From an uncultured Alphaproteobacteria bacterium (lineage in GTDB: Bacteria; Pseudomonadota; Alphaproteobacteria; CAAHEQ01; UBA3637), in assembly GCA_947586835.1 (NCBI GenBank), contig CANPXT010000001.1, positions 44,543 through 108,542 of the forward strand: a stretch of 64,000 nucleotides of DNA, given 5' to 3'. The notes under the pieces were generated by a model. That model ran no database searches. It was not told the DNA's origin and saw only the letters and a program-made list of their open reading frames with translations. Position 1 is the first letter of the stretch, and each line of letters starts with the position of its first letter. The translations under genes were made by a program, and so were the position numbers. Positions 37,778-49,467 of this stretch are shown piece after piece.

Positions 37778-38731
37778 ATGCAATATTTGGATTTTGAACA
37801 AACAATTGCCGAAATTGATAATCGTATTGAAGAAATTAAACTCAAACTGATTAATGACGAAAAAGGCGCTTCGGAACTGGACAGATTACACGCAAAAAAA
37901 GAAAAAGCTTTAACGGGATTATATAAAAACTTAACGGCTTGGCAAAAATCAGCCGTGGCACGTCATGAAAATCGCCCGCATACCACTGATTATTTAAATG
38001 AAATTTTCACAAATTTTTGTCCGTTAAGCGGCGATCGTAATTTTGCCGACGATCAAGCCATTATCGGCGGGTTTGCCAAACTCGGCAATCGAACGGTTAT
38101 GGTAATCGGCCACGAAAAAGGACACGATACCGAAAGTCGTTTATTACATAACTTCGGTATGGCAAAACCGGAAGGATATCGTAAAGCCATTCGGTTAATG
38201 AAATTGGCTGAACAATTTAATGTACCCGTTATCACGTTGGTTGATACCGCCGGCGCTTTTCCGGGTATGGAAGGAGAAGAACGCGGACAAGGGCAAGCTA
38301 TTGCCGCCGGCACGGAAACGTGTTTAGATTTAAAGGTTCCGCTTATCTCTTGCATTATCGGTGAAGGCGGTTCGGGCGGTGCTATCGCATTGGCTGCCGG
38401 TAACATTGTTTTAATGCTTGAAAACTCAATTTATTCCGTTATCTCTCCCGAAGGGTGTGCTTCTATTTTGTGGAAAGATGCCAAAATGGCGCCCAAAGCG
38501 GCTGAAATTTTGCATTTAACGGCGCAAGATTTACTCAAACTCGGCATTATTGATTCCATTATTACCGAACCGATCGGCGGAGCGCAACGGCATCCCAAAG
38601 AAACCATGGAAAATGTGCGGTTTGCTTTGGAAAAATATTTGACTCAATTGGAAAAATTATCGCCTGATGAATTAAAAACACATCGACATGAGAAATTTTT
38701 AACCATGACGCGGTTAAATGAGGCGGGATAA
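37778..38731 (+). CDS. accA: acetyl-CoA carboxylase carboxyltransferase alpha subunit
   Basis: 317 aa. Classic AccA throughout (…GHEKG…, FGMAKPEGYRKA, GEGGSGGA). Confidence 0.95.
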   Translation: MQYLDFEQTIAEIDNRIEEIKLKLINDEKGASELDRLHAKKEKALTGLYKNLTAWQKSAVARHENRPHTTDYLNEIFTNFCPLSGDRNFADDQAIIGGFAKLGNRTVMVIGHEKGHDTESRLLHNFGMAKPEGYRKAIRLMKLAEQFNVPVITLVDTAGAFPGMEGEERGQGQAIAAGTETCLDLKVPLISCIIGEGGSGGAIALAAGNIVLMLENSIYSVISPEGCASILWKDAKMAPKAAEILHLTAQDLLKLGIIDSIITEPIGGAQRHPKETMENVRFALEKYLTQLEKLSPDELKTHRHEKFLTMTRLNEAG

Positions 38732-38790
38732 TGGAAAAAGTCAAAAGAAAAAAATTAAAGCGTCATAAAAAATTTTTAACGTTTTCTTGC
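38495..38790. repeat. direct repeat copy 1 (accA 3' end + start of fucosyltransferase), ~296 bp
   Basis: Near-identical to 40217-40512 with about 3 mismatches. Confidence 0.85.
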
Positions 38791-39855
38791 TTACTATTCT
38801 TCTTTGCTTGCTTTCTTTCTTCCGCAATTCTCACGATTTTTCTTCTTTTTTATATTTATCCCGCCACACCGGAACAAGCTGCTTTAATTCGGTGGGAACA
38901 GCTGGTTTTGCCGCCGACGAGTGACTATATTTCGGTGTTTGAGGAATTGAAAAACGTGATGAAAAAACACGGGATGACTTTTCGTTTAAAGAACCGCCCG
39001 AAATTGACGGATAATTTAATTTTTGTGGCGCGAGCCGATTATCATGTGCCTTCCCATATAAAAGCACCGGCTTATTTATGGAATGTTGAATCACCGATAA
39101 CCATTCGATTTCCGGCCATCAAGAAAGATGAAGAGCGATATTCTAAAATTTTTACTTATTCCAAGAGATTTACGGATAATAAAAAATATTTTTATGCACC
39201 CGTTCCGTTCCGATATGATAACGCTTTTCCGTATTGTCCTAATCCCGCGCGAAAAACAGTGCTGGTTTCGCAAATTGCCGGATTATATAAATACGGTAAA
39301 AAAAACGAGTTATATTTTTTGCGACAAAAATCAACCGAATGGTATGTACGCAATCATCCCGAAGATTATTTTTTATATGGTAAAGATTGGAAAGATTTCA
39401 AAAAAACATTATCATCGAAAGAGCAAGAAGCTTTTGATCGGGTTTATCATGGATATATTCCTCGAAAATCCGATGCCGTTATAAAAGCAAAATTTATATT
39501 GGCTTATGAAAACGGTATTTTTGACGGATACGTCAGCGAAAAAATTTTTGATGTTATGGCATACGGGGCTGTTCCCGTCTATATCGGCGCACCAGATATT
39601 AAAAATTATGTGCCGGAAAACTGTTTTATTGATAAAAACAAATTTCAAACGGAAGAAGCGCTATATAACTATTTAAAAAATATGACCGATGAGCAATATT
39701 ATGACTATTTGATTTGCGGATCGGAGTATATGTCACGTCCCGTTCATTATAACGATCCGCTGACGGTTTTTCACTTATTGGAAAAAGAGCTTTTTGCGCC
39801 GCGTGAAATTTTCCATCGGTTTTTTCAAAAAATAGAGCACTTGTTTTTTGTTTAG
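38731..39855 (+). CDS. GT10-family alpha-1,3/4-fucosyltransferase-like protein with basic N-terminus and TM anchor
   Basis: C-terminal FucT motif KFILAYENGIFDGYVSEKIFDVMAYGAVPVYIGAP matches H. pylori FutA and eukaryotic FUT. N-terminal MEKVKRKKLKRHKK then a TM helix. ATG overlaps the accA stop. Confidence 0.8.
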   Translation: MEKVKRKKLKRHKKFLTFSCLLFFFACFLSSAILTIFLLFYIYPATPEQAALIRWEQLVLPPTSDYISVFEELKNVMKKHGMTFRLKNRPKLTDNLIFVARADYHVPSHIKAPAYLWNVESPITIRFPAIKKDEERYSKIFTYSKRFTDNKKYFYAPVPFRYDNAFPYCPNPARKTVLVSQIAGLYKYGKKNELYFLRQKSTEWYVRNHPEDYFLYGKDWKDFKKTLSSKEQEAFDRVYHGYIPRKSDAVIKAKFILAYENGIFDGYVSEKIFDVMAYGAVPVYIGAPDIKNYVPENCFIDKNKFQTEEALYNYLKNMTDEQYYDYLICGSEYMSRPVHYNDPLTVFHLLEKELFAPREIFHRFFQKIEHLFFV

Positions 39856-40216: not shown

Positions 40217-40512
40217 CAAAGCGGCTGCAATTTTACATTTAACGGCGCAAGATTTACTCAAACTCGGCATTATTGATTCCATTATTACCGAACCGATCGG
40301 CGGAGCGCAACGGCATCCCAAAGAAACCATGGAAAATGTGCGGTTTGCTTTGGAAAAATATTTGACTCAATTGGAAAAATTATCGCCTGATGAATTAAAA
40401 ACACATCGACATGAGAAATTTTTAACCATGACGCGGTTAAATGAGGCGGGATAATGGAAAAAGCCAAAAGAAAAAAATTAAAGCGTCATAAAAAATTTTT
40501 AACGTTTTCTTG
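40217..40512. repeat. direct repeat copy 2 (duplicated accA 3' fragment + fucT 5' fragment)
   Basis: See copy 1. Followed by a degenerate match (40514-40554) to 39048-39078. Confidence 0.85.
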
Positions 40513-40557
40513 TTTATCATGTGCCTTTCGGTATAAATGCACCGGCTTATTTTTTTA
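40453..40557 (+). pseudogene. truncated, scrambled remnant of the GT10 fucosyltransferase 5' end (34-codon ORF)
   Basis: Begins MEKAKRKKLKRHKKFLTFSC, identical to the intact gene start. Continues in a different frame to a stop. Confidence 0.7.
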
Positions 40558-40991: not shown

Positions 40992-41759
40992 TTAAAACGA
41001 GATGGCGGTAATTTTGGCCGAGTGATTTAAAACAAGAGTAATTTCTTGTGAAAATTTATCATATTGATACAAACTGTTGCGTCCGCTTTTACATGTTGAA
41101 AAAAACAAGCTGTCCCCCGTTTCGTTAAAGCCGATTGCCGTCACATCAAAAGCAATAAATTGTCGCAATTGTCCGATTTTAAAATCTACCCAACGAATCA
41201 TATCATTCGTGTAAACGGCATATTCCGTTTCGTTCGGTGATAAAGCAAAATAAGTAACATTTTCACACACCACTTGACTTTCTTTCATTAATCGCTTTGC
41301 AAAATGTTTTTGCGTATCAATGTAATAAAGTGCACCGCTTTTGGCAAAAAACATCGGCAACAAAGCACCGGAAAACGAATCGCTTAAATGAAACTTTGTG
41401 CGGGCTTTTTTATAAATTAAAATATCTGCCGTTCCTTTCGGATTTAATAAATCGGCACGTAAAAAGGCCAGTTGCGCATGCGGCGTGTTCCAAAGTGCCG
41501 GATAATAGCAATATCCTGATTGCATCATTATCGGCAAAGATTTTTGTTGTTGAAAGTTGGCAAGCGTCCATAAAAAATGCGTTTGCTCACCATCTAACTC
41601 AACGCCCGTAATAACCGTATGATCCGATGAAAATGTTGCAAATGGCGGAATATCTTTCATTAAAACCAAACGTCCGTTTCGCATAACCGCCCAAAGTTGA
41701 TGATTATCATCCGTAAAAAATATGCGATAAAGGGATAAAATTGAATTTGTCATTTGCAA
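40992..41759 (-). CDS. hypothetical protein, possibly beta-propeller-like
   Basis: 255 aa, no signal peptide, no recognised motif. Divergently transcribed from moxR. Confidence 0.45.
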   Translation of the reverse strand: MQMTNSILSLYRIFFTDDNHQLWAVMRNGRLVLMKDIPPFATFSSDHTVITGVELDGEQTHFLWTLANFQQQKSLPIMMQSGYCYYPALWNTPHAQLAFLRADLLNPKGTADILIYKKARTKFHLSDSFSGALLPMFFAKSGALYYIDTQKHFAKRLMKESQVVCENVTYFALSPNETEYAVYTNDMIRWVDFKIGQLRQFIAFDVTAIGFNETGDSLFFSTCKSGRNSLYQYDKFSQEITLVLNHSAKITAISF

Positions 41760-41823
41760 TCCTTATAAAAACAGTATATATTATTTTACATAACATTGCA
41801 ACTTGAAAAACGGAGTATAAAAA

Positions 41824-42783
41824 ATGACTTTATATGAAAGCTTTAAACAACTTGAAAAATATATGAATTCTTGCATTGTCGGACAATCAGATCTTGTAAA
41901 GAAACTCATTATTTCTTTATTGGCAAACGGTAACCTTTTGGTTGAAGGTGCGCCGGGATTAGCTAAAACGAAAGCCATTAAAACATTGGCACATGCCATT
42001 GATGCTAAAGAACAACGTATTCAATTTACGCCTGATTTATTGCCTTCCGATGTCACGGGCAGCGATGTTTTTCGTCCGGAAACAAATCAATTTTATTTTC
42101 AAAAGGGTCCTATTTTCAGCAATCTTGTTTTAGCCGATGAAATCAATCGGGCGCCGGCAAAAGTACAATCCGCCCTGCTCGAAGCCATGGGCGAACGACA
42201 AGTGACCGTAGGGGCAACAACTTATCGTCTGCCTGATTTGTTTATGGTAATGGCCACGCAAAACCCGATTGACAATGAGGGAACATATGTGTTGCCGGAA
42301 GCACAACTTGATCGCTTTTTGCTTTATATAAAAATCGGTTATCCTGATATTGAATCGGAACGAAAAATTTTAAAAATCATTCGTAAAGAAGAGAAAAAAG
42401 AGCCTTTGCCCGAAATTGAAAAAATTACCGAACGAATGATTTTTGCCGCACGTCGGGAAGTATCAAACATTTATATGTCACCCGAAATTGAAGAATATCT
42501 CCTTCAATTGGTAATGGCAACTCGTTTCCCGGCAGCTTACGGCGAAGATTTGGCAAAATATATTGCATTCGGTGTTTCACCACGCGGTACCATTGCTCTT
42601 GATATATGTACGCGTGCCAACGCTTGGCTTAACAATCGCGATTACGTCATGCCTGAGGATATTAAAACTATTGTGTATGATGTGCTCCGTCACCGTGTTT
42701 TGCCCACATTTGAAGCCAAAAGCACCGGCATTACGTCCGATAAGATTTTAGAGTTGCTATTATCTCGAATTCCCATATTGTAA
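41824..42783 (+). CDS. MoxR-family AAA+ ATPase
   Basis: Walker A GAPGLAKT, Walker B LADEINR, sensor motifs. 319 aa. Confidence 0.9.
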   Translation: MTLYESFKQLEKYMNSCIVGQSDLVKKLIISLLANGNLLVEGAPGLAKTKAIKTLAHAIDAKEQRIQFTPDLLPSDVTGSDVFRPETNQFYFQKGPIFSNLVLADEINRAPAKVQSALLEAMGERQVTVGATTYRLPDLFMVMATQNPIDNEGTYVLPEAQLDRFLLYIKIGYPDIESERKILKIIRKEEKKEPLPEIEKITERMIFAARREVSNIYMSPEIEEYLLQLVMATRFPAAYGEDLAKYIAFGVSPRGTIALDICTRANAWLNNRDYVMPEDIKTIVYDVLRHRVLPTFEAKSTGITSDKILELLLSRIPIL

Positions 42784-42792
42784 AGGAAAAAA

Positions 42793-43713
42793 ATGCATTT
42801 TGATTCCCCTACCGTTTCCGCCACTCTTGATGATTTACTGCGTTTAAAAAAACAAGCGCAGCGTTTTGAGTTGAAAGAAACAAATCGACAAGCATATCTC
42901 GGATGGGGACAAACAAAATCACCTTTTAAATCAAAAGGTCTCGACTTTCAAGAAGTGCGAACCTATCAACCCGGCGATGATATTCGTCAGATTGATTGGC
43001 GGGTCACGGCAAAATACGGTAAACCGTTTACCAAACTATATACCGATGAAAAAGAAAGACAAGTTTTTCTCATTTGCGATATGCGAACACGAATGAAGTT
43101 TGCCTCGCGCGGTCGATTTAAATCGATTGTATGCGCATATGCAACAACATTACTCGCATACTTAGCCGCAAATAAATCAGATCGGCTGGGTTTTACGATT
43201 TTAACACCCGAAACGATTGAAACCGCACGTGCTTACGGTTCTCATGAAGTAACGGACGGTTTATTAAAGTTGTTGGTTACGTCATCTGATCCGACAAAAA
43301 TCGAATCGGATCAAATAACATTGCAACAGGCGTTACAAAAGTCAAAACCGCTTATTCGAGCCGGTTCGTTGATATTTATATTAAGCGATTTTTCGGATTG
43401 GTCACCGGCTTGTGAAACAATTGTCCGACAATGGACACAAAAAAGCATTTGCGGGCTGATTCATATTTACGATGAATTGGAAAAACAATTGCCGCGCGGC
43501 ATATTTTCGGTTTCGGACGGAAAAGAAATAAGCGCAATCGATACCAGGAGTCATCATTTTCAAGTCGATTATGCCGACATATTTTTAAAACGCACGGAAG
43601 CCCTTCAAAATTTAGCACGGAATTTTGAAATCGGTTATTTGCCGATTCGTACCGATGAAAATATTATTCCCAAAATCCTGGCTTATTGCATTGGAGAAAA
43701 AAATAATGCCTGA
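42793..43713 (+). CDS. DUF58 (VWA-fold) protein, MoxR partner
   Basis: GLDFQEVRTYQPGDDIRQIDWRVTAKYGKPFTKLY hallmark of DUF58. Confidence 0.85.
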   Translation: MHFDSPTVSATLDDLLRLKKQAQRFELKETNRQAYLGWGQTKSPFKSKGLDFQEVRTYQPGDDIRQIDWRVTAKYGKPFTKLYTDEKERQVFLICDMRTRMKFASRGRFKSIVCAYATTLLAYLAANKSDRLGFTILTPETIETARAYGSHEVTDGLLKLLVTSSDPTKIESDQITLQQALQKSKPLIRAGSLIFILSDFSDWSPACETIVRQWTQKSICGLIHIYDELEKQLPRGIFSVSDGKEISAIDTRSHHFQVDYADIFLKRTEALQNLARNFEIGYLPIRTDENIIPKILAYCIGEKNNA

Positions 43714-44176
43714 TATTGATTTAACACCTTTAAAAGATGTTCATTTGCCGACAGAGCCTTCCCTGTTTCCGCCGGCAACGGGTTGGTGGATTGTTGCAGG
43801 TGTTTTATGTATATTGATAATCGGCAGTTTCTTGTTTCTTTATTTTCTCAAGCGCTCTCCCAAAAGATATGCCTTACGTATTTTAAAATCCATTGAACGA
43901 AACCAAAGTGATTTACCTACCATCGGCGTTGAATTGGGTATATTGCTAAAACGCGTTGCATTGGTGGCTTTTCCGCGGGAAGAAGTTGCCTCGTTAAGCG
44001 ATAAAGAATGGGCCGATTTTTTACTGCAACACGGAAACGGTGCCTTATCTCCGGAACAGGCAAAATTTATTGTATCGGCAGCTTACTTACCGAAACAAAA
44101 AGCAGTTGCAATCGAAACAGAAAAATTATATACTGCTGTTAAAGATTGGATTTACTATGTTTTGAAAAAAGGATAA
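43706..44176 (+). CDS. DUF4381-like membrane protein
   Basis: Start at the ATG at 43706 overlaps the DUF58 stop. N-terminal PDIDLTPL…P…GWW then one TM helix, as in Bat-type operons downstream of DUF58. Confidence 0.55.
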   Translation: MPDIDLTPLKDVHLPTEPSLFPPATGWWIVAGVLCILIIGSFLFLYFLKRSPKRYALRILKSIERNQSDLPTIGVELGILLKRVALVAFPREEVASLSDKEWADFLLQHGNGALSPEQAKFIVSAAYLPKQKAVAIETEKLYTAVKDWIYYVLKKG

Positions 44177-44179
44177 TTT

Positions 44180-44929
44180 ATGGAAAATAATGCGCAAACC
44201 ACAACGGATAATCAAGACACTCAAACCGTTTTACCTTCCCTGGTTGAAGAAACACTTTCTTCCTCAACGGAAAGTCGAGCGGGCGTATCTTTTCTGGTAA
44301 CGGTTAATTATCAATCGTTAAGCGGTAATTTAAAAAGTCGTGATTTTTTAATTCGGCGCATTATTAAGCATCAAAATGAATATTATCTGGACGGTTTGGC
44401 AATGGATGTTAAATCTCCGCGTTTGATTCGTGTCGCACAAATATCGTTTATCAAAGATAAAGCCGCCACAAACGGTTACAGTAATCCTTATCGTTTTTTG
44501 CAAGATGTTTTGGGTGTTGAAATCGATAACAGTCTTTTACCCGAAGATATGTCTGATTTTTCAAAAGCCATTAAAGAAACCGGTGATGAATTAACGGTTT
44601 TAATGTATTTAATTGCCGTTGACGGCATTCGCAGCAGTTCCGAAAGAGAAAAAGTGTTGACCTATGTTAAACGACGCGTTCCTTATTTAAATTATGATGA
44701 ATTGCAAATGAATGATTATTTAATTTCCATGGCACCCGATGAAGATAGTTTCTCCATGGCATTACATCGTGTTATTCGAAAAGGTATTATCGTTATTCAG
44801 CCGCTTATGGAAACAATTTTAGCCGTAATTATGGCAGACGGACAAATACACGAAAAAGAACGAGCCTTATTAGCGCGCATTATTGATACTTTAAAACAAG
44901 CCGGCTATGAGTTTCAATTACCGGAATAA
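44180..44929 (+). CDS. TerB-like domain protein with N-terminal WYL-like region
   Basis: C-terminal duplicated ADG-x-I…E…L motifs (IAVDGIRSSSEREKVL; IMADGQIHEKERALL) typical of TerB. N-terminal RDFLIRRI…EYYLDGLAMD…RLIRVAQISFI resembles the WYL beta-barrel. Confidence 0.45.
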   Translation: MENNAQTTTDNQDTQTVLPSLVEETLSSSTESRAGVSFLVTVNYQSLSGNLKSRDFLIRRIIKHQNEYYLDGLAMDVKSPRLIRVAQISFIKDKAATNGYSNPYRFLQDVLGVEIDNSLLPEDMSDFSKAIKETGDELTVLMYLIAVDGIRSSSEREKVLTYVKRRVPYLNYDELQMNDYLISMAPDEDSFSMALHRVIRKGIIVIQPLMETILAVIMADGQIHEKERALLARIIDTLKQAGYEFQLPE

Positions 44930-45105: not shown

Positions 45106-45134
45106 TTGACTTATGCTAAATTTTTTGTTATATT
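45106..45134 (+). promoter_or_regulatory. putative sigma70 promoter of rpmG (TTGACT-17-TATATT)
   Basis: Near-consensus hexamers 43 nt upstream of the ATG. Confidence 0.4.
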
Positions 45135-45176: not shown

Positions 45177-45344
45177 ATGGCAAAACCAACAACTGTTGAA
45201 ATTAAATTAGAAAGCACAGCCGGTACGGGTACTTTCTATGTTACAAAAAAGAATCCGCGGACGAAAACCGAAAAGATGAAAGTTCGCAAATATGATAAAA
45301 AAGCCAGAAAGCATGTTGATTTCGTTGAAAAGAAAATCAAGTAA
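45177..45344 (+). CDS. rpmG: 50S ribosomal protein L33 (frame disrupted at an A5 tract 45297-45301 as sequenced; intact with A6)
   Basis: N-terminal 41 codons read [41 protein letters not shown]. The conserved C-terminus [14 protein letters not shown] appears only in the -1 frame after the A-run. Confidence 0.7.
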
Positions 45345-45365
45345 GTTTTCGGGTTATTTTTCAAA

Positions 45366-45476: not shown

Positions 45477-45608
45477 AATGAAAAAAATTCTTTTACTTAT
45501 CTTAATGGCTGTTTTTTTGGCGGCACCTGCCATCTCTTATGCTAAAATTAACTTTGAAGACGCCGATAAGGAAAGCAGTTCAAATCCGTACAATAAGACA
45601 AAATGTGA
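45477..45608 (+). CDS. small secreted peptide (43 aa, signal peptide + ~21-aa mature part)
   Basis: Strong RBS AGGAGGG 6 nt upstream, TGcTATAAT-like -10 at 45436-45444, signal peptide MKKILLLILMAVFLAAPAISYA, terminator downstream. Confidence 0.3.
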
Positions 45609-45671
45609 TGGTATGACAACCTTAACAAAATGTGTGGGAAGCTGAAAAATTGTTTTTCCATAAAAGTCGGT

Positions 45672-45756: not shown

Positions 45757-47313
45757 TTAATTACCCGACAACAATGCGTCAATTAATTCTTGCACAGTCG
45801 GAATGTATCCGTTTTTATACATCGGATCCGTTCCGAATCGATAGGCCAAATGTCCGGCAAACATTAAATTATTGTCAATGCTTTCACCATGCGCAATGGC
45901 AGTTAAGGTTTTTGTAATACAAAACGAACGCGAATCGGGTAGTCTGTCTAAATGTCCATTGGTCTGTGACCACCCTGAAAACGCACAAGCCGATAAACAC
46001 CCGACACAATTGGCTCTATCCTCTTTTATTTGCGCGTCTTCCTCACGTGACAAGAAAATTAAAGATTTATCGGGCGTACGAACGGCAATCGGTTTATCAC
46101 CCGCCTGATAAGCTTTAGCACGCCTAAAATCGTGTTCCGTTAAATAAACGGTATGCGCAACCGAAACAACAAACGGCTTGACAAAAATACCTTCCGGCTT
46201 TTCCGTGTAGGGCATTTCCGTATCTTTTCGATCAATTAAACTTTGCAAAAACTTGTTTTTGACGGCTGATGAATAAAACCCTGTCGGAGAAAATTGTTGT
46301 AAAATCACATCACCTTTCTTCAAAGCCCGCAGGCATCCTTGCCAAGCTTTTGCCACCGGACTTTCAACCGTTAACAACGGACGAGTACCCAATTGAAATG
46401 CAATCGGACCGATTTCCGGATTGTCGATAAAATCTTCAAATTCGCTTAAATTCCAAACACCACCGGCCATAATAATCGGCACGTTTTCCAAATGATATTC
46501 ATTCATCTGCTTGCGTAAAGTAACCAATCGCGGATACGGATTTTCGGGCTGTTCGGGATTTTCGGAATTGGATAAGCCGTTATGACCGCCCGCCAACCAC
46601 GGATCTTCATAAACAACACCGCCTAAATATTCGGGACAATTTTTATAACTTCTGAGCCATAAAGCCCGAAACGCCCGAGCCGAAGAAACAATCGGATAAT
46701 AATAAAGACCGTATTTTGACGCAATTTCCGCGAGTTTATACGGCATTCCGGCACCGCAGGTAATTCCGTGAATCAACTTATGCACTTCCCCTAAAATATC
46801 ATTTACGACGGGAACGGCATCTTTCACACGTTTTTGGTATTGAAATCGAAGTGTTCCGAGCGTTTGTTGTACCAATTCGCCGACGGCTTCCAACTTTTCC
46901 TGATATTTCTCAGGTGCTTTTTGCATTAAATTTTTCATGACGGTTTCACATGAGTTCATCACACCTTCCAAAATGGGAATACTTCCCCCCATTTCCCAAA
47001 GCACGTTCATGTGAATTCGCCCTTTATCTCCGGCAATTTCATGAGCAATTTTTGCTTGTGAAATACCGCCTTTAATAGACATTTCAATCAATTCGTTATG
47101 TCTTTCCGGACGCGTTTTACGCGTATAAACTTTGGGAACAATGCGCCCTTTTTCATCAACCGTATCGGCAAACACGCCGGAAATGGTACCGACAGCACCG
47201 GCTTTTGCCCAAGCACCCGATGAATGTCCGTCGGATACGGCAATACCTTTACCGCCCTCAATTAACGGAATAACTTCTTTACCGGAAATAATAATCGGAT
47301 TTAATTGTTTCAT
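45757..47313 (-). CDS. FMN-dependent oxidoreductase, nitronate monooxygenase/FabK-like (NMO) family, long form
   Basis: 518 aa. TIM-barrel NMO-like motifs (GGKGIAVS, IIMAGGVWN) with a long C-terminal extension. Confidence 0.6.
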   Translation of the reverse strand: MKQLNPIIISGKEVIPLIEGGKGIAVSDGHSSGAWAKAGAVGTISGVFADTVDEKGRIVPKVYTRKTRPERHNELIEMSIKGGISQAKIAHEIAGDKGRIHMNVLWEMGGSIPILEGVMNSCETVMKNLMQKAPEKYQEKLEAVGELVQQTLGTLRFQYQKRVKDAVPVVNDILGEVHKLIHGITCGAGMPYKLAEIASKYGLYYYPIVSSARAFRALWLRSYKNCPEYLGGVVYEDPWLAGGHNGLSNSENPEQPENPYPRLVTLRKQMNEYHLENVPIIMAGGVWNLSEFEDFIDNPEIGPIAFQLGTRPLLTVESPVAKAWQGCLRALKKGDVILQQFSPTGFYSSAVKNKFLQSLIDRKDTEMPYTEKPEGIFVKPFVVSVAHTVYLTEHDFRRAKAYQAGDKPIAVRTPDKSLIFLSREEDAQIKEDRANCVGCLSACAFSGWSQTNGHLDRLPDSRSFCITKTLTAIAHGESIDNNLMFAGHLAYRFGTDPMYKNGYIPTVQELIDALLSGN

Positions 47314-47487
47314 ACCTGACCCTCATTCTTAATTAAACGAAGATATTTTAAACGGATTTTTAAAAAAAAGCAATGAAAATCCATTATTTTGACAATTTTA
47401 TTTTATAAGAACATATTTTTCTTGAATTTTATAAAAAAAAACAGATATAATTTCGTTAAAACAAAACAACTTCTTCCGGGAGGCAGA

Positions 47488-49467
47488 ATGTATTTAACAG
47501 GCGATCATGTTTCCAAAGAAAAACTTTTAAAAATTGCCGATAAATGCAAATTATCGGTGTGGCCGAATGCCGAAAATCCCTTTCTGCACCAAGGCAGTCT
47601 CTCCGAACTGCCCGAGTCTTTGTGCGTTATTTCCGATGAATTAACCGAAACACGTCTGGAAACATTGTTTCAATTACCCGTCACCGTTTTAATTGACGCA
47701 CAAGCTTCATTTAAAAGTATTGTCGATTTCATCAATCAACAAAAAAATCATACCTGGTCGGACGGATTGGGCTTTTTGTTGACCGGTCCCGTTATTTATC
47801 ATTATGACGTGGCACTCATTTTTTCCAAAGCTTTACAAAAACGACAGAGATTTTCCGACAGACGATTTGAATCCATTCATTTAGCTTTACACGAATCATT
47901 AGTCAACGGTTTAATTCACGGCAATTTGCGTTTATCCGGGAAATTGCGTCAAAACGCCGCTGAATACACATCATACAGTGATTTGGTTCGCGAACGCTTA
48001 AATACACCCGCCTATGCGCGAAAAGCCATCAGCATTGCGGCACAATGGAATCGTTCCAAAATGAAAATTACGGTGCGTGATGAGGGGATGGGTTATTCCC
48101 TCGCAGAAATTTTAAAACAAACACCAAGCCTTCGCGCCACATCCGGACGGGGATTACGAATTATTGCCGGAGCAGCCGATTCGTGTACCATTGATAATTA
48201 CGGCAAAGAAATTTCTCTTTCGTTTTTGCGTGAAAAATCTCAAACTCCCGATGCCTTGCCCGCCATCGAGACGGTTTCATCCGCAGAAACAATTCGGCAC
48301 GAAGATTTATCCCAAGCCAAAGTATTAATTATTGAAGATGATAAAAGCAATCAGGCTCTGCTCGGCGGATTGTTATCACAACTGGGCATTAAGCAAATTG
48401 AAATTGCCGAAGACGGCGTTTTGGGACTGAACAAAGTTTTAACGTTTGAACCCGACTTGATTATTTTAGATATCGGTATGCCGAAACTTAACGGATACGA
48501 AGTATTAAAACGATTGAAATCAACGCCTGTTACGCATGCCATACCCGTTTTAATTCAAACCGCATCCGATACGCGCGAAGCCAGAGATAAAACTTTTAAA
48601 TCAGGTGCTTCCGATTTTATTACCAAACCGATTAATCCGCTGGAATTTTTTGCACGCGTGCGCATTCATTTGGAAAATAAAATGCTGGTTAATCGATTAC
48701 AAAAACGATTAAAGCAAATTCATCAAGAACTTTCAACGGCACAAAGTATGCAAATGGGTCTTTTACCCCATGCCGAACGTATGCAAAACATTCATCGGCG
48801 ATACGGATTGGATATAGCCTCCTATTTTGAACCATCCGATAAATTAGGCGGTGATTTTTGGCAGATTATTGAATTAGATCGCTATCGAATCGGTTTTTAT
48901 TTATGTGATTTTTCGGGACACGGATTGGCTTCGGCCTTAAACACATTCCGTCTGCATACGCTCATTTTTCAAATGCATGAAAAAATTAAACAACCGTCCG
49001 ATTTTTTAACAATCTTAAATCATCATCTCTATGCGTTATTGCAACGCGGACAATTTGCCACCTTCTTTTTCGGTATTTATAATCTGTCAAATAAAACATT
49101 AACCTATTCGGGTGCTGCCGCTCCGGCACCGTTTCACTGGGACGGTAAAAAATGGCATATTTTAACTACACGCGGACTTCCGCTCGGCATTTCTCAATCA
49201 GCGGTTTATGAAGATAAAACCATTTCGTTTAAACCCGGTAATCGTTTGTTTATTTACAGTGATGCTTTAACAGAAACCGTTAACACTCAAAACGAACAAA
49301 TGAGCGTGAAAGAATTAATGCGCTTTGTTAAAGAATTATCCGTACAAATGCCCGTTCGGGAAGGATTAACCGGCATTATGAATCGCTTTTTCAGCTTTGC
49401 TCCGCCCCCCATTAATGATGATATTACCGCTGTGTTAATTGAATCTCAAAGAAAGGATACGAAGTGA
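47488..49467 (+). CDS. tri-domain regulator: anti-sigma-factor-like kinase domain (HATPase_c_2) + REC receiver + PP2C/SpoIIE phosphatase
   Basis: Start at the ATG at 47488 (GGAGG RBS). Residues ~130-260 are RsbW-like (LALHESLVNGLIHGN…VRDEGMG…GRGLRII). REC domain (VLIIEDD…ILDIGMP…KP). C-terminal SpoIIE (GGDFWQII…CDFSGHG…). Confidence 0.8.
   Translation: MYLTGDHVSKEKLLKIADKCKLSVWPNAENPFLHQGSLSELPESLCVISDELTETRLETLFQLPVTVLIDAQASFKSIVDFINQQKNHTWSDGLGFLLTGPVIYHYDVALIFSKALQKRQRFSDRRFESIHLALHESLVNGLIHGNLRLSGKLRQNAAEYTSYSDLVRERLNTPAYARKAISIAAQWNRSKMKITVRDEGMGYSLAEILKQTPSLRATSGRGLRIIAGAADSCTIDNYGKEISLSFLREKSQTPDALPAIETVSSAETIRHEDLSQAKVLIIEDDKSNQALLGGLLSQLGIKQIEIAEDGVLGLNKVLTFEPDLIILDIGMPKLNGYEVLKRLKSTPVTHAIPVLIQTASDTREARDKTFKSGASDFITKPINPLEFFARVRIHLENKMLVNRLQKRLKQIHQELSTAQSMQMGLLPHAERMQNIHRRYGLDIASYFEPSDKLGGDFWQIIELDRYRIGFYLCDFSGHGLASALNTFRLHTLIFQMHEKIKQPSDFLTILNHHLYALLQRGQFATFFFGIYNLSNKTLTYSGAAAPAPFHWDGKKWHILTTRGLPLGISQSAVYEDKTISFKPGNRLFIYSDALTETVNTQNEQMSVKELMRFVKELSVQMPVREGLTGIMNRFFSFAPPPINDDITAVLIESQRKDTK

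What the first reader, a model, noticed from the sequence alone, without database searches (positions are those of the whole stretch)
41824..44929. MoxR-DUF58-DUF4381 operon terminated by a WYL-like/TerB-like protein instead of BatA-type VWA membrane proteins
moxR (Walker A/B clear), the DUF58 gene (hallmark RTYQPGDDIRQIDWR) and a DUF4381-like single-TM protein are tightly packed, with the DUF58 stop overlapping the next start. This is the front half of a Bat-type (Bacteroides aerotolerance) operon. Where BatA/BatB VWA membrane proteins would normally follow, there is a soluble 249-aa protein. Its C-terminal half shows the twin ADG…E repeats of TerB. Its N-terminal half resembles a WYL ligand-sensing beta-barrel (RDFLIRRI…EYYLDGLAMD…RLIRVAQI). 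WYL domains are best known as regulators or sensors in defence islands, and TerB domains as membrane-proximal stress or defence modules. I do not recognise this combination as a described system.
Basis: partly seen in the sequence, partly recalled or inferred. Interest (0 to 1): 0.55.

Follow-up and report, generated by a model that had tools for sequence, protein, structure and literature searches.

The report
MoxR chaperone operon ending in WYL–TerB
A lineage of uncultured gut Alphaproteobacteria carries a shortened MoxR chaperone operon in which the usual membrane proteins are replaced by a small soluble protein with a nucleic-acid-sensor-type domain (WYL) joined to a TerB domain; the pairing is real and conserved but looks like a chromosomal stress or housekeeping module, not a mobile defence system.

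Summary
Four tightly packed + strand genes encode MoxR (AAA_3, 8e-62), DUF58 (1e-30), a single-pass DUF4381 protein (3e-33) and a soluble 249-aa protein. Its C-terminal half is TerB (26.9 bits, above Pfam's cutoff). Its N-terminal half is a WYL fold: Pfam's WYL model misses it, but the AlphaFold model (pLDDT 84) hits PafBC, BrxR, CapW and DriD first (RMSD 1.3-1.7 Å), and distant family members reach the WYL threshold.

The gene order holds in all 39 related loci that carry the operon genes, all labelled uncultured Alphaproteobacteria (one Lactobacillales), gut-sourced where stated. The DUF4381-to-gene-4 spacing has a median of -4 bp, and gene-4 and MoxR divergence correlate (r = 0.94). Canonical relatives (Sagittula, Sinorhizobium) have VWA-VWA-BatD there instead. 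One sister lineage has only the three-gene core.

The WYL–TerB family is broader (276 clusters) and is stand-alone elsewhere, so the MoxR linkage is a derived capture. A WYL+TerB combination was already listed in 2014. I found no defence signal: no PADLOC hits, housekeeping neighbours, vertical inheritance.

Best reading: a ligand-sensing adaptor or regulator added to a membrane-tethered MoxR module. That mechanism is inferred, not shown. It is a new variant of a known kind, of moderate interest.

The parts
40992..41753 (-). Divergently transcribed 253-aa cytoplasmic six-bladed (TolB-like) beta-propeller. It is a conserved neighbour in the main clade and an optional partner.
   Evidence: AF2 pLDDT 90.4, pTM 0.87, 22 strands. 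Foldseek top hits are TolB propellers at 2e-8. No Pfam family. 29 homologues, named only as uncultured Alphaproteobacteria MAGs. Present in 31 loci; absent from L025, L026, L031, L041, L045 and L046. No hydrophobic N-terminus.
41754..41823 (.). 70-bp divergent intergenic region, the presumed promoter region for both transcription units.
   Evidence: Sequence. Promoter-like hexamer matches on both strands at 41753-41809; these are consensus matches only.
41824..42783 (+). MoxR-family AAA+ ATPase, 319 aa, with ordinary Walker A GAPGLAKT.
   Evidence: AAA_3 8.3e-62, AAA_lid_2 2e-18, bpMoxR 2.4e-16 as an overlapping weaker hit. 60-92% identical across related loci.
42793..43713 (+). DUF58 protein (vWA-like partner of MoxR), 306 aa, no TM segment.
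   Evidence: PF01882 1.4e-30. The PGDD.R.IDW block is invariant. The MIDAS position reads D-x-R, as in canonical Bat-type operons.
43706..44176 (+). DUF4381 single-pass membrane protein, 156 aa. TM at aa 27-48, predicted N-out / C-in. Its start overlaps the DUF58 stop.
   Evidence: PF14316 2.8e-33. The ATG at 43706 overlaps the stop at 43711-13. KD19 maximum 2.71; N-flank net charge -3, C-flank +6.
44180..44929 (+). Gene 4: soluble 249-aa WYL-TerB protein. Disordered tail aa 1-18, helix 20-28, WYL barrel 30-93, linker, TerB bundle 126-240.
   Evidence: AF2 pLDDT 83.9, pTM 0.80. Foldseek hits WYL proteins and TerB-like PG1108. Pfam TerB above the cutoff. The family profile hits PafBC at 1.7e-7 and PG_1108 at 1.7e-5.
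44267..44458 (+). WYL (Sm-like five-stranded barrel) domain, aa 30-93. Y44, R54, R59, R60 and R81 are invariant in the clade.
   Evidence: Essential WYL positions defined in PafBC (PMC6789036) map to Y44, Y68-Y69-L70 and R81/R84.
44555..44899 (+). TerB domain, aa 126-240, a six-helix bundle with two DG.....E motifs (D148/E155, D220/E227).
   Evidence: PF05099 26.9 bits. D220 and E227 are invariant and D148 and E155 nearly so across the 50-sequence broad family. 2h5n and 2ou3 hits.

Best explanation
This is a chromosomal, vertically inherited four-gene operon of an uncultured Alphaproteobacteria lineage (gut-sourced where the record names a source).

The first three genes form a self-sufficient membrane-tethered chaperone core: a MoxR AAA+ ATPase, its vWA-like DUF58 partner, and the single-pass DUF4381 anchor, whose C-terminal domain faces the cytoplasm. 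The usual downstream BatA/BatB/BatD genes are missing.

A soluble WYL-TerB protein occupies their place. It comes from a family that is normally stand-alone, and here it has been captured and translationally coupled to the core.

I propose it works as a ligand-gated adaptor or regulator. The WYL barrel senses an anionic nucleic-acid-type ligand; its solved relatives bind single-stranded DNA. The TerB bundle provides the membrane-proximal or metal-dependent interface. Together they would direct or gate MoxR-driven remodelling at the inner membrane during stress.

Shown: gene content, domain identities, conservation, co-inheritance, tight coupling, and absence of defence hallmarks.
Inferred: co-transcription, any physical interaction, the ligand, and the output.
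For: Domains:
- Pfam AAA_3, DUF58, DUF4381 and TerB.
- WYL fold: Foldseek top hits PafBC, BrxR, CapW and DriD at probability 1.00, RMSD 1.3-1.7 Å over about 56 aa.
- Distant family members pass Pfam's WYL cutoff: P0136 32.6 bits, P0118 22.3 bits.
- The family profile hits PafBC at 1.7e-7, PafC at 3e-4 and CapW at 2.6e-3.
- Several of those structures are complexes with ssDNA (titles; PMC11804915, PMC9186387 and PMC11662680).

Coupling:
- Colinear in 39/39 loci that carry the operon genes.
- DUF4381 stop to gene-4 ATG: median -4 bp, maximum +10 bp.
- Kept in a second, more divergent clade with different flanks on both sides (L041, L042, L046).
- Pairwise divergence of gene 4 against MoxR gives r = 0.935.
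- No usable internal promoter or terminator.

Accessory, not core:
- L045 has MoxR-DUF58-DUF4381 followed directly by rpmG.
- Stand-alone homologues elsewhere.

Membrane theme:
- A TM2-WYL-TerB fusion exists (L057).
- DUF4381 is predicted N-out / C-in.
- The TerB region weakly matches DjlA, a membrane co-chaperone.
- TerB is reported as membrane-associated.
Against: - No direct evidence of co-transcription or of protein-protein contact.
- Gene order is generally conserved in this clade. Even the unrelated rpmG keeps its place downstream, so synteny alone overstates functional linkage.
- Most family members are stand-alone, so the protein can work without MoxR.
- One sister lineage lacks gene 4, so MoxR-DUF58-DUF4381 can work without it.
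- The WYL domain here is a derived version: the family-typical 'CHER' motif and the WYL triplet are altered. Pfam's WYL model does not reach it, so ssDNA binding may not be retained.
- The DUF58 MIDAS site is non-canonical.
Confidence: 0.45

Rival explanations
1. Passenger gene. The WYL-TerB protein keeps the autonomous function it has in other Alphaproteobacteria, for example a DNA-damage or nucleic-acid-related stress role. It merely shares a transcript with the MoxR core in compact genomes, with no functional interplay.
For: Stand-alone homologues dominate outside the clade. Some sit near RadC, AlkZ-like, TfoX or helicase genes, and RadC follows gene 4 in L003. L045 lacks gene 4. The unrelated rpmG is also syntenic.
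Against: Start and stop codons overlap or lie within 10 bp in all 39 loci. The linkage persists in clades whose flanks differ on both sides. Gene 4 divergence tracks MoxR at least as closely as DUF58 does.
Confidence: 0.28
2. Structural replacement. The WYL-TerB protein is the client or scaffold that DUF58 and MoxR act on, taking the place of the BatA/BatB VWA proteins rather than sensing anything.
For: It occupies exactly the position of the VWA-VWA-BatD genes in canonical operons. MoxR-vWA pairs are thought to capture and remodel a partner protein (PMC7159879). Gene 4 has a conserved, partly disordered N-terminal tail with invariant P19 and E31.
Against: It shares no domain with BatA/B and has no TM segment. 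The three-gene core exists without it. The N-terminal tail motif also occurs in stand-alone members.
Confidence: 0.15
3. Anti-phage or conflict system. It would be a WYL/TerB-based defence module of the Shango/Bunzi or MoxR-vWA ternary type, with MoxR as the NTPase.
For: WYL and TerB domains recur in defence contexts (PMC4012209; Bunzi and Shango). A beta-propeller gene lies next to MoxR, and MoxR cross-hits PF20030 bpMoxR. Some distant family members sit beside an AbiEii-like ATPase or at the edge of an integrated element.
Against: No PADLOC model matches any of the five proteins. Neighbours are housekeeping genes: accA, rpmG, rsmE, enolase. The locus is single-copy, in a fixed chromosomal position, and vertically inherited. 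There is no effector domain and no architectural variability. The defining features of the beta-propeller ternary system are not met.
Confidence: 0.08

Closest known systems
Bat-type (aerotolerance-like) MoxR operon: MoxR-DUF58-DUF4381-VWA(BatA)-VWA(BatB)-BatD
   Same: The first three genes, in the same order and equally compact. The window's DUF58 is 27-30% identical to the DUF58 of Sagittula and Sinorhizobium in the alignment (31-32% by tblastn), and it has the same D-x-R at the MIDAS position.
   Different: There are no BatA/BatB VWA membrane proteins and no BatD in the operon. A soluble WYL-TerB protein follows DUF4381, or nothing does in one sister lineage.
Stand-alone WYL-TerB two-domain proteins (combination listed by Makarova et al. 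2014, citing Anantharaman et al. 2012)
   Same: Same two-domain architecture and length of about 250-270 aa. They are detected by the family profile across both domains (276 clusters). They share invariant R81, D220 and E227.
   Different: Those genes are stand-alone, or fused to TM2 or to disordered tails, and none of those examined is MoxR-linked. The window's WYL domain is a derived version that lacks the family-typical AYCHER motif.
wHTH-WYL-WCX transcription regulators (PafBC, DriD, CapW, BrxR)
   Same: WYL Sm-like barrel, RMSD 1.3-1.7 Å. The β1 Tyr and the β4/β5 basic residues shown to be essential in PafBC are conserved.
   Different: There is no HTH domain and no WCX domain, so it cannot be a DNA-binding transcription factor of that type. 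The C-terminal partner is TerB.
DjlA (TM + TerB-like domain + J domain, membrane co-chaperone of DnaK)
   Same: A TerB-type domain associated with a chaperone system at the inner membrane. There is a weak NCBIfam match to DjlA over aa 198-245 (E = 0.008).
   Different: DjlA links TerB to its chaperone by gene fusion (a J domain) and has its own TM segment. Here the link is operonic, the chaperone is MoxR, and the anchor would be DUF4381. This is an analogy from general knowledge and was not tested.
MoxR-vWA-beta-propeller ternary conflict systems (Kaur et al. 2020, PMC7159879)
   Same: A MoxR, a vWA-like protein and a beta-propeller are encoded together. MoxR scores 59.9 bits on PF20030.
   Different: The propeller is a separate, divergently transcribed six-bladed protein and is not fused to the vWA. 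There is no TPR+propeller third component. The P-loop is ordinary. AAA_3 is by far the better MoxR match.

Membership tests
MoxR AAA+ ATPase (Pfam AAA_3 / MRP-type) | AAA_3 core with Walker A/B, plus the AAA_lid_2 domain | tested here: met
   AAA_3 207 bits, AAA_lid_2 66 bits. GAPGLAKT and LVLADE are in the translation.
Bat-type MoxR operon | MoxR-DUF58-DUF4381 in this order, as a compact operon | tested here: met
   The same order is seen in Sagittula and Sinorhizobium.
Bat-type MoxR operon | Downstream BatA/BatB VWA membrane proteins and BatD | tested here: not met
   Gene 4 is WYL-TerB and is followed by rpmG. None of the 39 related loci has VWA or BatD genes there. Whether such genes occur elsewhere in the genome could not be tested.
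TerB domain (PF05099) | Pfam score above the gathering threshold, helical bundle, paired acidic DG.....E motifs | tested here: met
   26.9 bits against 24.4. Six-helix bundle. 2h5n and 2ou3 matches. D148/E155 and D220/E227 conserved.
WYL domain (PF13280) | Direct match of this protein to the Pfam WYL model at the gathering threshold | tested here: not met
   No WYL hit at E <= 1 for the window protein.
WYL domain (PF13280) | Sm-like five-stranded barrel superposing on solved WYL domains; homology through intermediate sequences; conserved β1 Tyr and β4/β5 basic patch | tested here: met
   Foldseek top 16 hits are all WYL proteins. P0136 and P0118 pass the WYL threshold and are family members at 1e-13 to 1e-21. 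The profile hits PafBC at 1.7e-7. Y44, R81 and R84 map to essential PafBC positions.
WYL domain: ligand binding | Binds ssDNA, RNA or a nucleotide ligand | not testable with these tools
   Needs biochemistry (EMSA, ITC) on purified protein.
wHTH-WYL-WCX regulators | N-terminal winged HTH and C-terminal WCX domain | tested here: not met
   The model shows only a short helix before the WYL barrel and a TerB bundle after it. No HTH family in Pfam.
MoxR-vWA-beta-propeller ternary system (Kaur 2020) | Propeller fused C-terminal to the vWA; third component with TPR + propeller; GxxxTAKS P-loop (described as often, not always, present) | tested here: not met
   DUF58 is 306 aa with no propeller. The propeller is a separate 253-aa protein. 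Walker A is GAPGLAKT. Definition taken.
Known anti-phage defence systems (PADLOC v2, includes Shango and Bunzi) | Match to a defence-system protein model | tested here: not met
   No hit for DUF58, DUF4381, gene 4 or the propeller. MoxR has only marginal hits of 16.8 and 13.8 bits.

The most novel reading that the evidence does not exclude
The WYL-TerB protein is a ligand-gated switch that couples detection of cytoplasmic single-stranded nucleic acid (from DNA damage or phage or plasmid entry) to MoxR-driven remodelling of an inner-membrane complex. That would be a post-translational, chaperone-based output for a WYL sensor, in contrast to the transcriptional outputs known so far. It would also give the first defined input signal for a Bat-type MoxR-DUF58 system.
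Probability: 0.2. Interest if true: 0.65.

Novelty: new variant of a known kind. Interest (0 to 1): 0.42.

Why it matters
MoxR-DUF58(-Bat) operons are widespread, but their biochemical role and their triggering signal are unknown. All well-studied WYL domains act through an attached DNA-binding domain. A lineage in which a WYL-TerB sensor-like protein is translationally coupled to a minimal MoxR-DUF58-DUF4381 core offers two things.

First, it suggests a testable input for this class of chaperone modules.

Second, it gives a natural comparison for dissecting what each part contributes: the core alone (L045), the core plus WYL-TerB (this window), and the core plus BatA/B/D (Sagittula, Sinorhizobium).

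The practical limitation is that all carriers are uncultured, so tests would need heterologous expression.

Tried and rejected
- The Pfam WYL model on the window protein gave no hit. This was resolved through structure and intermediate sequences.
- The narrow-clade profile (A1) against PDB sequences gave no hits. The broader profile (A3) was needed.
- The defence reading was rejected: PADLOC was negative and the context is housekeeping.
- Membership in the Kaur et al. beta-propeller ternary system was considered because of the adjacent propeller and the PF20030 cross-hit. It was rejected on the defining features.
- The idea that loss of BatA/B went with a degenerate DUF58 MIDAS site was rejected: canonical operons have the same D-x-R.
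- The idea that the conserved N-terminal tail (P19, E31) is a MoxR-clade-specific docking peptide was not supported: a similar tail occurs in stand-alone members.
- P0049, an apparent WYL-SGNH hydrolase fusion, was judged a probable chimera on a single short contig.
- Anantharaman et al. 2012 could not be read because it is not held.
- The broad alignment was too diverse for locus scans, so a subset was used.
- A literature search for MoxR/DUF58/TerB and for DUF4381 found no paper describing this arrangement.
Full report
**1. Observation**

| Gene | Coordinates | Pfam result |
|---|---|---|
| MoxR | 41824-42783 | AAA_3, 8.3e-62, plus AAA_lid_2 |
| DUF58 | 42793-43713 | DUF58, 1.4e-30 |
| DUF4381 | 43706-44176 | DUF4381, 2.8e-33 |
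| Gene 4 | 44180-44929 | TerB over aa 140-245, 26.9 bits (cutoff 24.4) |

The DUF4381 gene most likely starts at the ATG at 43706, which overlaps the DUF58 stop at 43711-43713. The other gaps are 9 bp and 3 bp. A hydropathy scan finds a membrane segment only in DUF4381 (aa 27-48). The charge bias (-3 before, +6 after) predicts an N-out / C-in topology. rpmG lies downstream at 45178-45345 and has its own strong promoter-like site.

**2. Is the N-terminal half a WYL domain?**

Pfam's WYL model does not reach the window protein, even at E = 1. Three other lines support WYL.

- An AlphaFold2 model built on 32 homologues is confident (pLDDT 83.9, pTM 0.80). It shows a five-stranded barrel (aa 30-93) followed by a six-helix bundle (aa 126-240).
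- A Foldseek search of the PDB returns WYL proteins in the top 16 places: PafBC, BrxR, CapW and DriD, at probability 1.00 and RMSD 1.3-1.7 Å over about 56 residues. The TerB-like PG1108 (2h5n) matches the C-terminal half.
- A profile search of 1.84 billion cluster representatives found 276 clusters at E <= 1e-3. Most are 250-270 aa and match across both domains. Members such as P0136 (32.6 bits) and P0118 (22.3 bits) pass Pfam's WYL threshold of 21.8 bits and also hit TerB.

A profile of 50 diverse members hits solved structures by sequence alone. On the WYL side: PafBC 1.7e-7, PafC 3e-4, CapW 2.6e-3. On the TerB side: PG_1108 1.7e-5, 2ou3 4e-3.

The broad family consensus is a textbook WYL signature: I.Y.D..G..S.RRITIRR...AYCHER.A.R.FR.DRI..D..TGEV. 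The window's clade carries a derived version, Y.SLSGN.K.RDFLIRRI...EYY.DG.A.D..PRLIRV.QI. That explains why Pfam missed it.

Positions shown to be essential in PafBC are the β1 Tyr, the WYL triplet and the β4/β5 arginines (PMC6789036). They map to Y44 (invariant), Y68-Y69-L70, and R81 (invariant) with R84 (R or K).

**3. Is the arrangement conserved?**

Homologues of gene 4 found by word-indexed search number only 49. The only names given are uncultured Alphaproteobacteria MAGs. A scan of GTDB species genomes found 31 loci. Source hosts named in the record titles are rabbit, roe deer, sheep, yak and water buffalo, and two are Hadza and Nepal samples that I take to be human.

- tblastn shows MoxR-DUF58-DUF4381-gene 4 colinear in every locus that carries the operon genes: 36 of 36 in the first set, and 39 in all.
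- The distance from the DUF4381 stop to the nearest gene-4 ATG has a median of -4 bp and never exceeds +10 bp.
- Pairwise divergence of gene 4 correlates with that of MoxR at r = 0.935, which is higher than MoxR against DUF58 at 0.894.
- The linkage also holds in more divergent clades whose flanks differ on both sides (L041, L042, L046).
- The only 10/12 promoter-like match near gene 4 has its -10 element ending downstream of the ATG. No + strand terminator separates the genes, apart from a weak match inside the DUF58 coding sequence.

One caveat: gene order is generally stable in this clade. The unrelated rpmG is also syntenic, so synteny alone overstates the functional link.

**4. What normally sits there, and is gene 4 essential to the core?**

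Annotated alphaproteobacterial replicons show the canonical order. A Sagittula stellata plasmid has MoxR-DUF58-DUF4381-VWA-VWA-BatD. In the S. meliloti pSymA gene table, one VWA gene and BatD are listed after DUF4381, with an unannotated stretch between them.

A sister lineage (L045) has the three-gene core followed directly by rpmG. Its MoxR and DUF58 are 66% and 44% identical to the window's. It has no gene 4 and no Bat genes anywhere in 12 kb. The core can therefore exist alone, which marks gene 4 as an accessory.

The DUF58 MIDAS position reads D-x-R in both canonical and truncated operons. It is a subfamily trait and is unrelated to the loss of BatA/B.

**5. The wider WYL-TerB family**

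Outside the clades above, the gene is stand-alone.

- P0118 lies near TfoX_N, AlkZ-like and RadC genes. P0104 and P0109 lie next to DsbA. P0229 follows pyrG and kdsA.
- None of 21 environmental loci has MoxR, DUF58 or DUF4381 nearby.
- Variants include a TM2-WYL-TerB membrane fusion beside an AbiEii-like ATPase (L057), a copy at the edge of an integrated element (L050, L051), and forms with long disordered N-terminal tails.

The domain combination is not new: Makarova et al. 2014 list WYL combined with TerB (PMC4012209). I found no paper linking it to MoxR, DUF58 or DUF4381.

**6. The upstream neighbour**

The divergently transcribed 253-aa gene (40992-41753, - strand) has no Pfam family. It is confidently modelled (pLDDT 90.4) as a six-bladed TolB-like propeller with no signal peptide. 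It accompanies the operon in 31 loci and is absent from six.

With MoxR's cross-hit to PF20030, this prompted a check against the MoxR-vWA-beta-propeller ternary systems of Kaur et al. 2020. Their features are a propeller fused to the vWA, a TPR+propeller third component and, often, a GxxxTAKS P-loop. None is present here.

**7. Defence or housekeeping?**

No PADLOC model matches DUF58, DUF4381, gene 4 or the propeller, and MoxR gives only marginal hits. The surrounding genes are accA, serine dehydratase, rsmE, a cation efflux protein, enolase and rpmG. The locus is single-copy, keeps the same upstream propeller and downstream rpmG neighbours in most loci of the main clade, and is vertically inherited. 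TerB domains do occur in the Bunzi and Shango defence systems, and WYL domains in defence regulators. That keeps a conflict role possible, but it is unlikely here.

**8. Mechanism**

Shown: a conserved, translationally coupled operon of a MoxR ATPase, a vWA-like DUF58, a single-pass anchor with a cytoplasmic C-terminal domain, and a soluble WYL-TerB protein.

Inferred: the first three form a membrane-tethered remodelling unit. This follows the general MoxR-vWA chaperone and co-chaperone model summarised in PMC7159879. The WYL-TerB protein would act as a ligand-sensing adaptor or regulator, with WYL binding an anionic nucleic-acid-type ligand as in PafBC, DriD and CapW. TerB would supply a membrane-proximal or metal-dependent interface. 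DjlA, a TerB-like domain tied to the DnaK chaperone at the membrane, is an analogy from general knowledge, backed only by a weak match.

I put this at about 0.45. The rivals are a functionally independent passenger (0.28), a client or scaffold replacing BatA/B (0.15), and a defence system (0.08).

**9. Verdict**

The domain calls are right, including the WYL guess. The "undescribed system" claim needs narrowing. The parts and the WYL+TerB fusion are known. What is new is their operonic coupling to a minimal Bat-type MoxR core in one uncultured alphaproteobacterial lineage. This is a new variant of a known kind, of moderate interest.

Noticed in passing
window 38494-38793 and 40217-40516 (also 39039-39077 / 40514-40552): A 300-bp direct repeat at 99% identity duplicates the last ~240 nt of accA plus the first ~63 nt of the adjacent GT10-type glycosyltransferase gene (38731-39855). 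The second copy continues into a short, internally deleted remnant of that gene. It is either a segmental duplication around the glycosyltransferase or an assembly artefact.
   Followed up: partly
window 45178-45345 and 45479-45646: The apparently ORF-poor gap after gene 4 holds rpmG (ribosomal protein L33), with a strong promoter-like site at 45106-45134. It also holds a 55-aa ORF with a signal-peptide-like N-terminus and two cysteines (MKKILLLILMAVFLAAPAISYA...), a possible small secreted peptide.
   Followed up: no
window 47389-49467 (+): A 692-aa protein combines an HATPase_c_2 (anti-sigma-type kinase) domain, a response-regulator receiver and a SpoIIE/PP2C phosphatase. This looks like an all-in-one partner-switching signalling protein.
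   Followed up: no
window 45757-47313 (-): A 518-aa protein has only a weak nitronate monooxygenase / FabK-like match (PF03060, 35 bits). It is much longer than typical NMO proteins.
   Followed up: no
L057 4605-5687 (metagenome contig Ga0256845_1004813): A TM2-WYL-TerB fusion protein (360 aa), a membrane-anchored version of the two-domain module. It lies next to an AAA_21 (AbiEii-like) ATPase gene, a possible defence-type context for this branch of the family.
   Followed up: partly
L050 / L051 2614-5597: A stand-alone WYL-TerB gene lies immediately downstream of DUF2924, a large serine recombinase and a terminase large subunit, at the edge of an integrated phage-like element and next to rpoD.
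   Followed up: no
P0104, P0109, P0110, P0121 (loci L039, L040): A subfamily of WYL-TerB proteins carries 170-310-aa N-terminal tails that are charged and rich in Pro and Tyr, and probably disordered. They always sit next to DsbA and an SNF-family transporter and are followed by an unannotated 323-345-aa protein.
   Followed up: no
P0049 (206 aa, 3.7-kb ENA contig): The N-terminal tail and WYL half of the gene-4 family (61% identical) switch abruptly into a partial SGNH/GDSL hydrolase. It is a singleton, and probably an assembly chimera or rearrangement rather than a real alternative fusion.
   Followed up: partly
L027 (CAYPVK010000019.1): A MAG labelled 'uncultured Lactobacillales' carries the complete alphaproteobacterial-type block of propeller, MoxR, DUF58, DUF4381 and WYL-TerB. 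The label is probably a binning or taxonomic-labelling error.
   Followed up: no
L001 11340-16792 and L003 9551-15922: Related loci encode giant proteins (2213 aa with a TrbI domain next to a T2SSE ATPase; 2123 aa with only a weak M48 peptidase hit) a few kb from the operon. They are not conserved with the operon.
   Followed up: no
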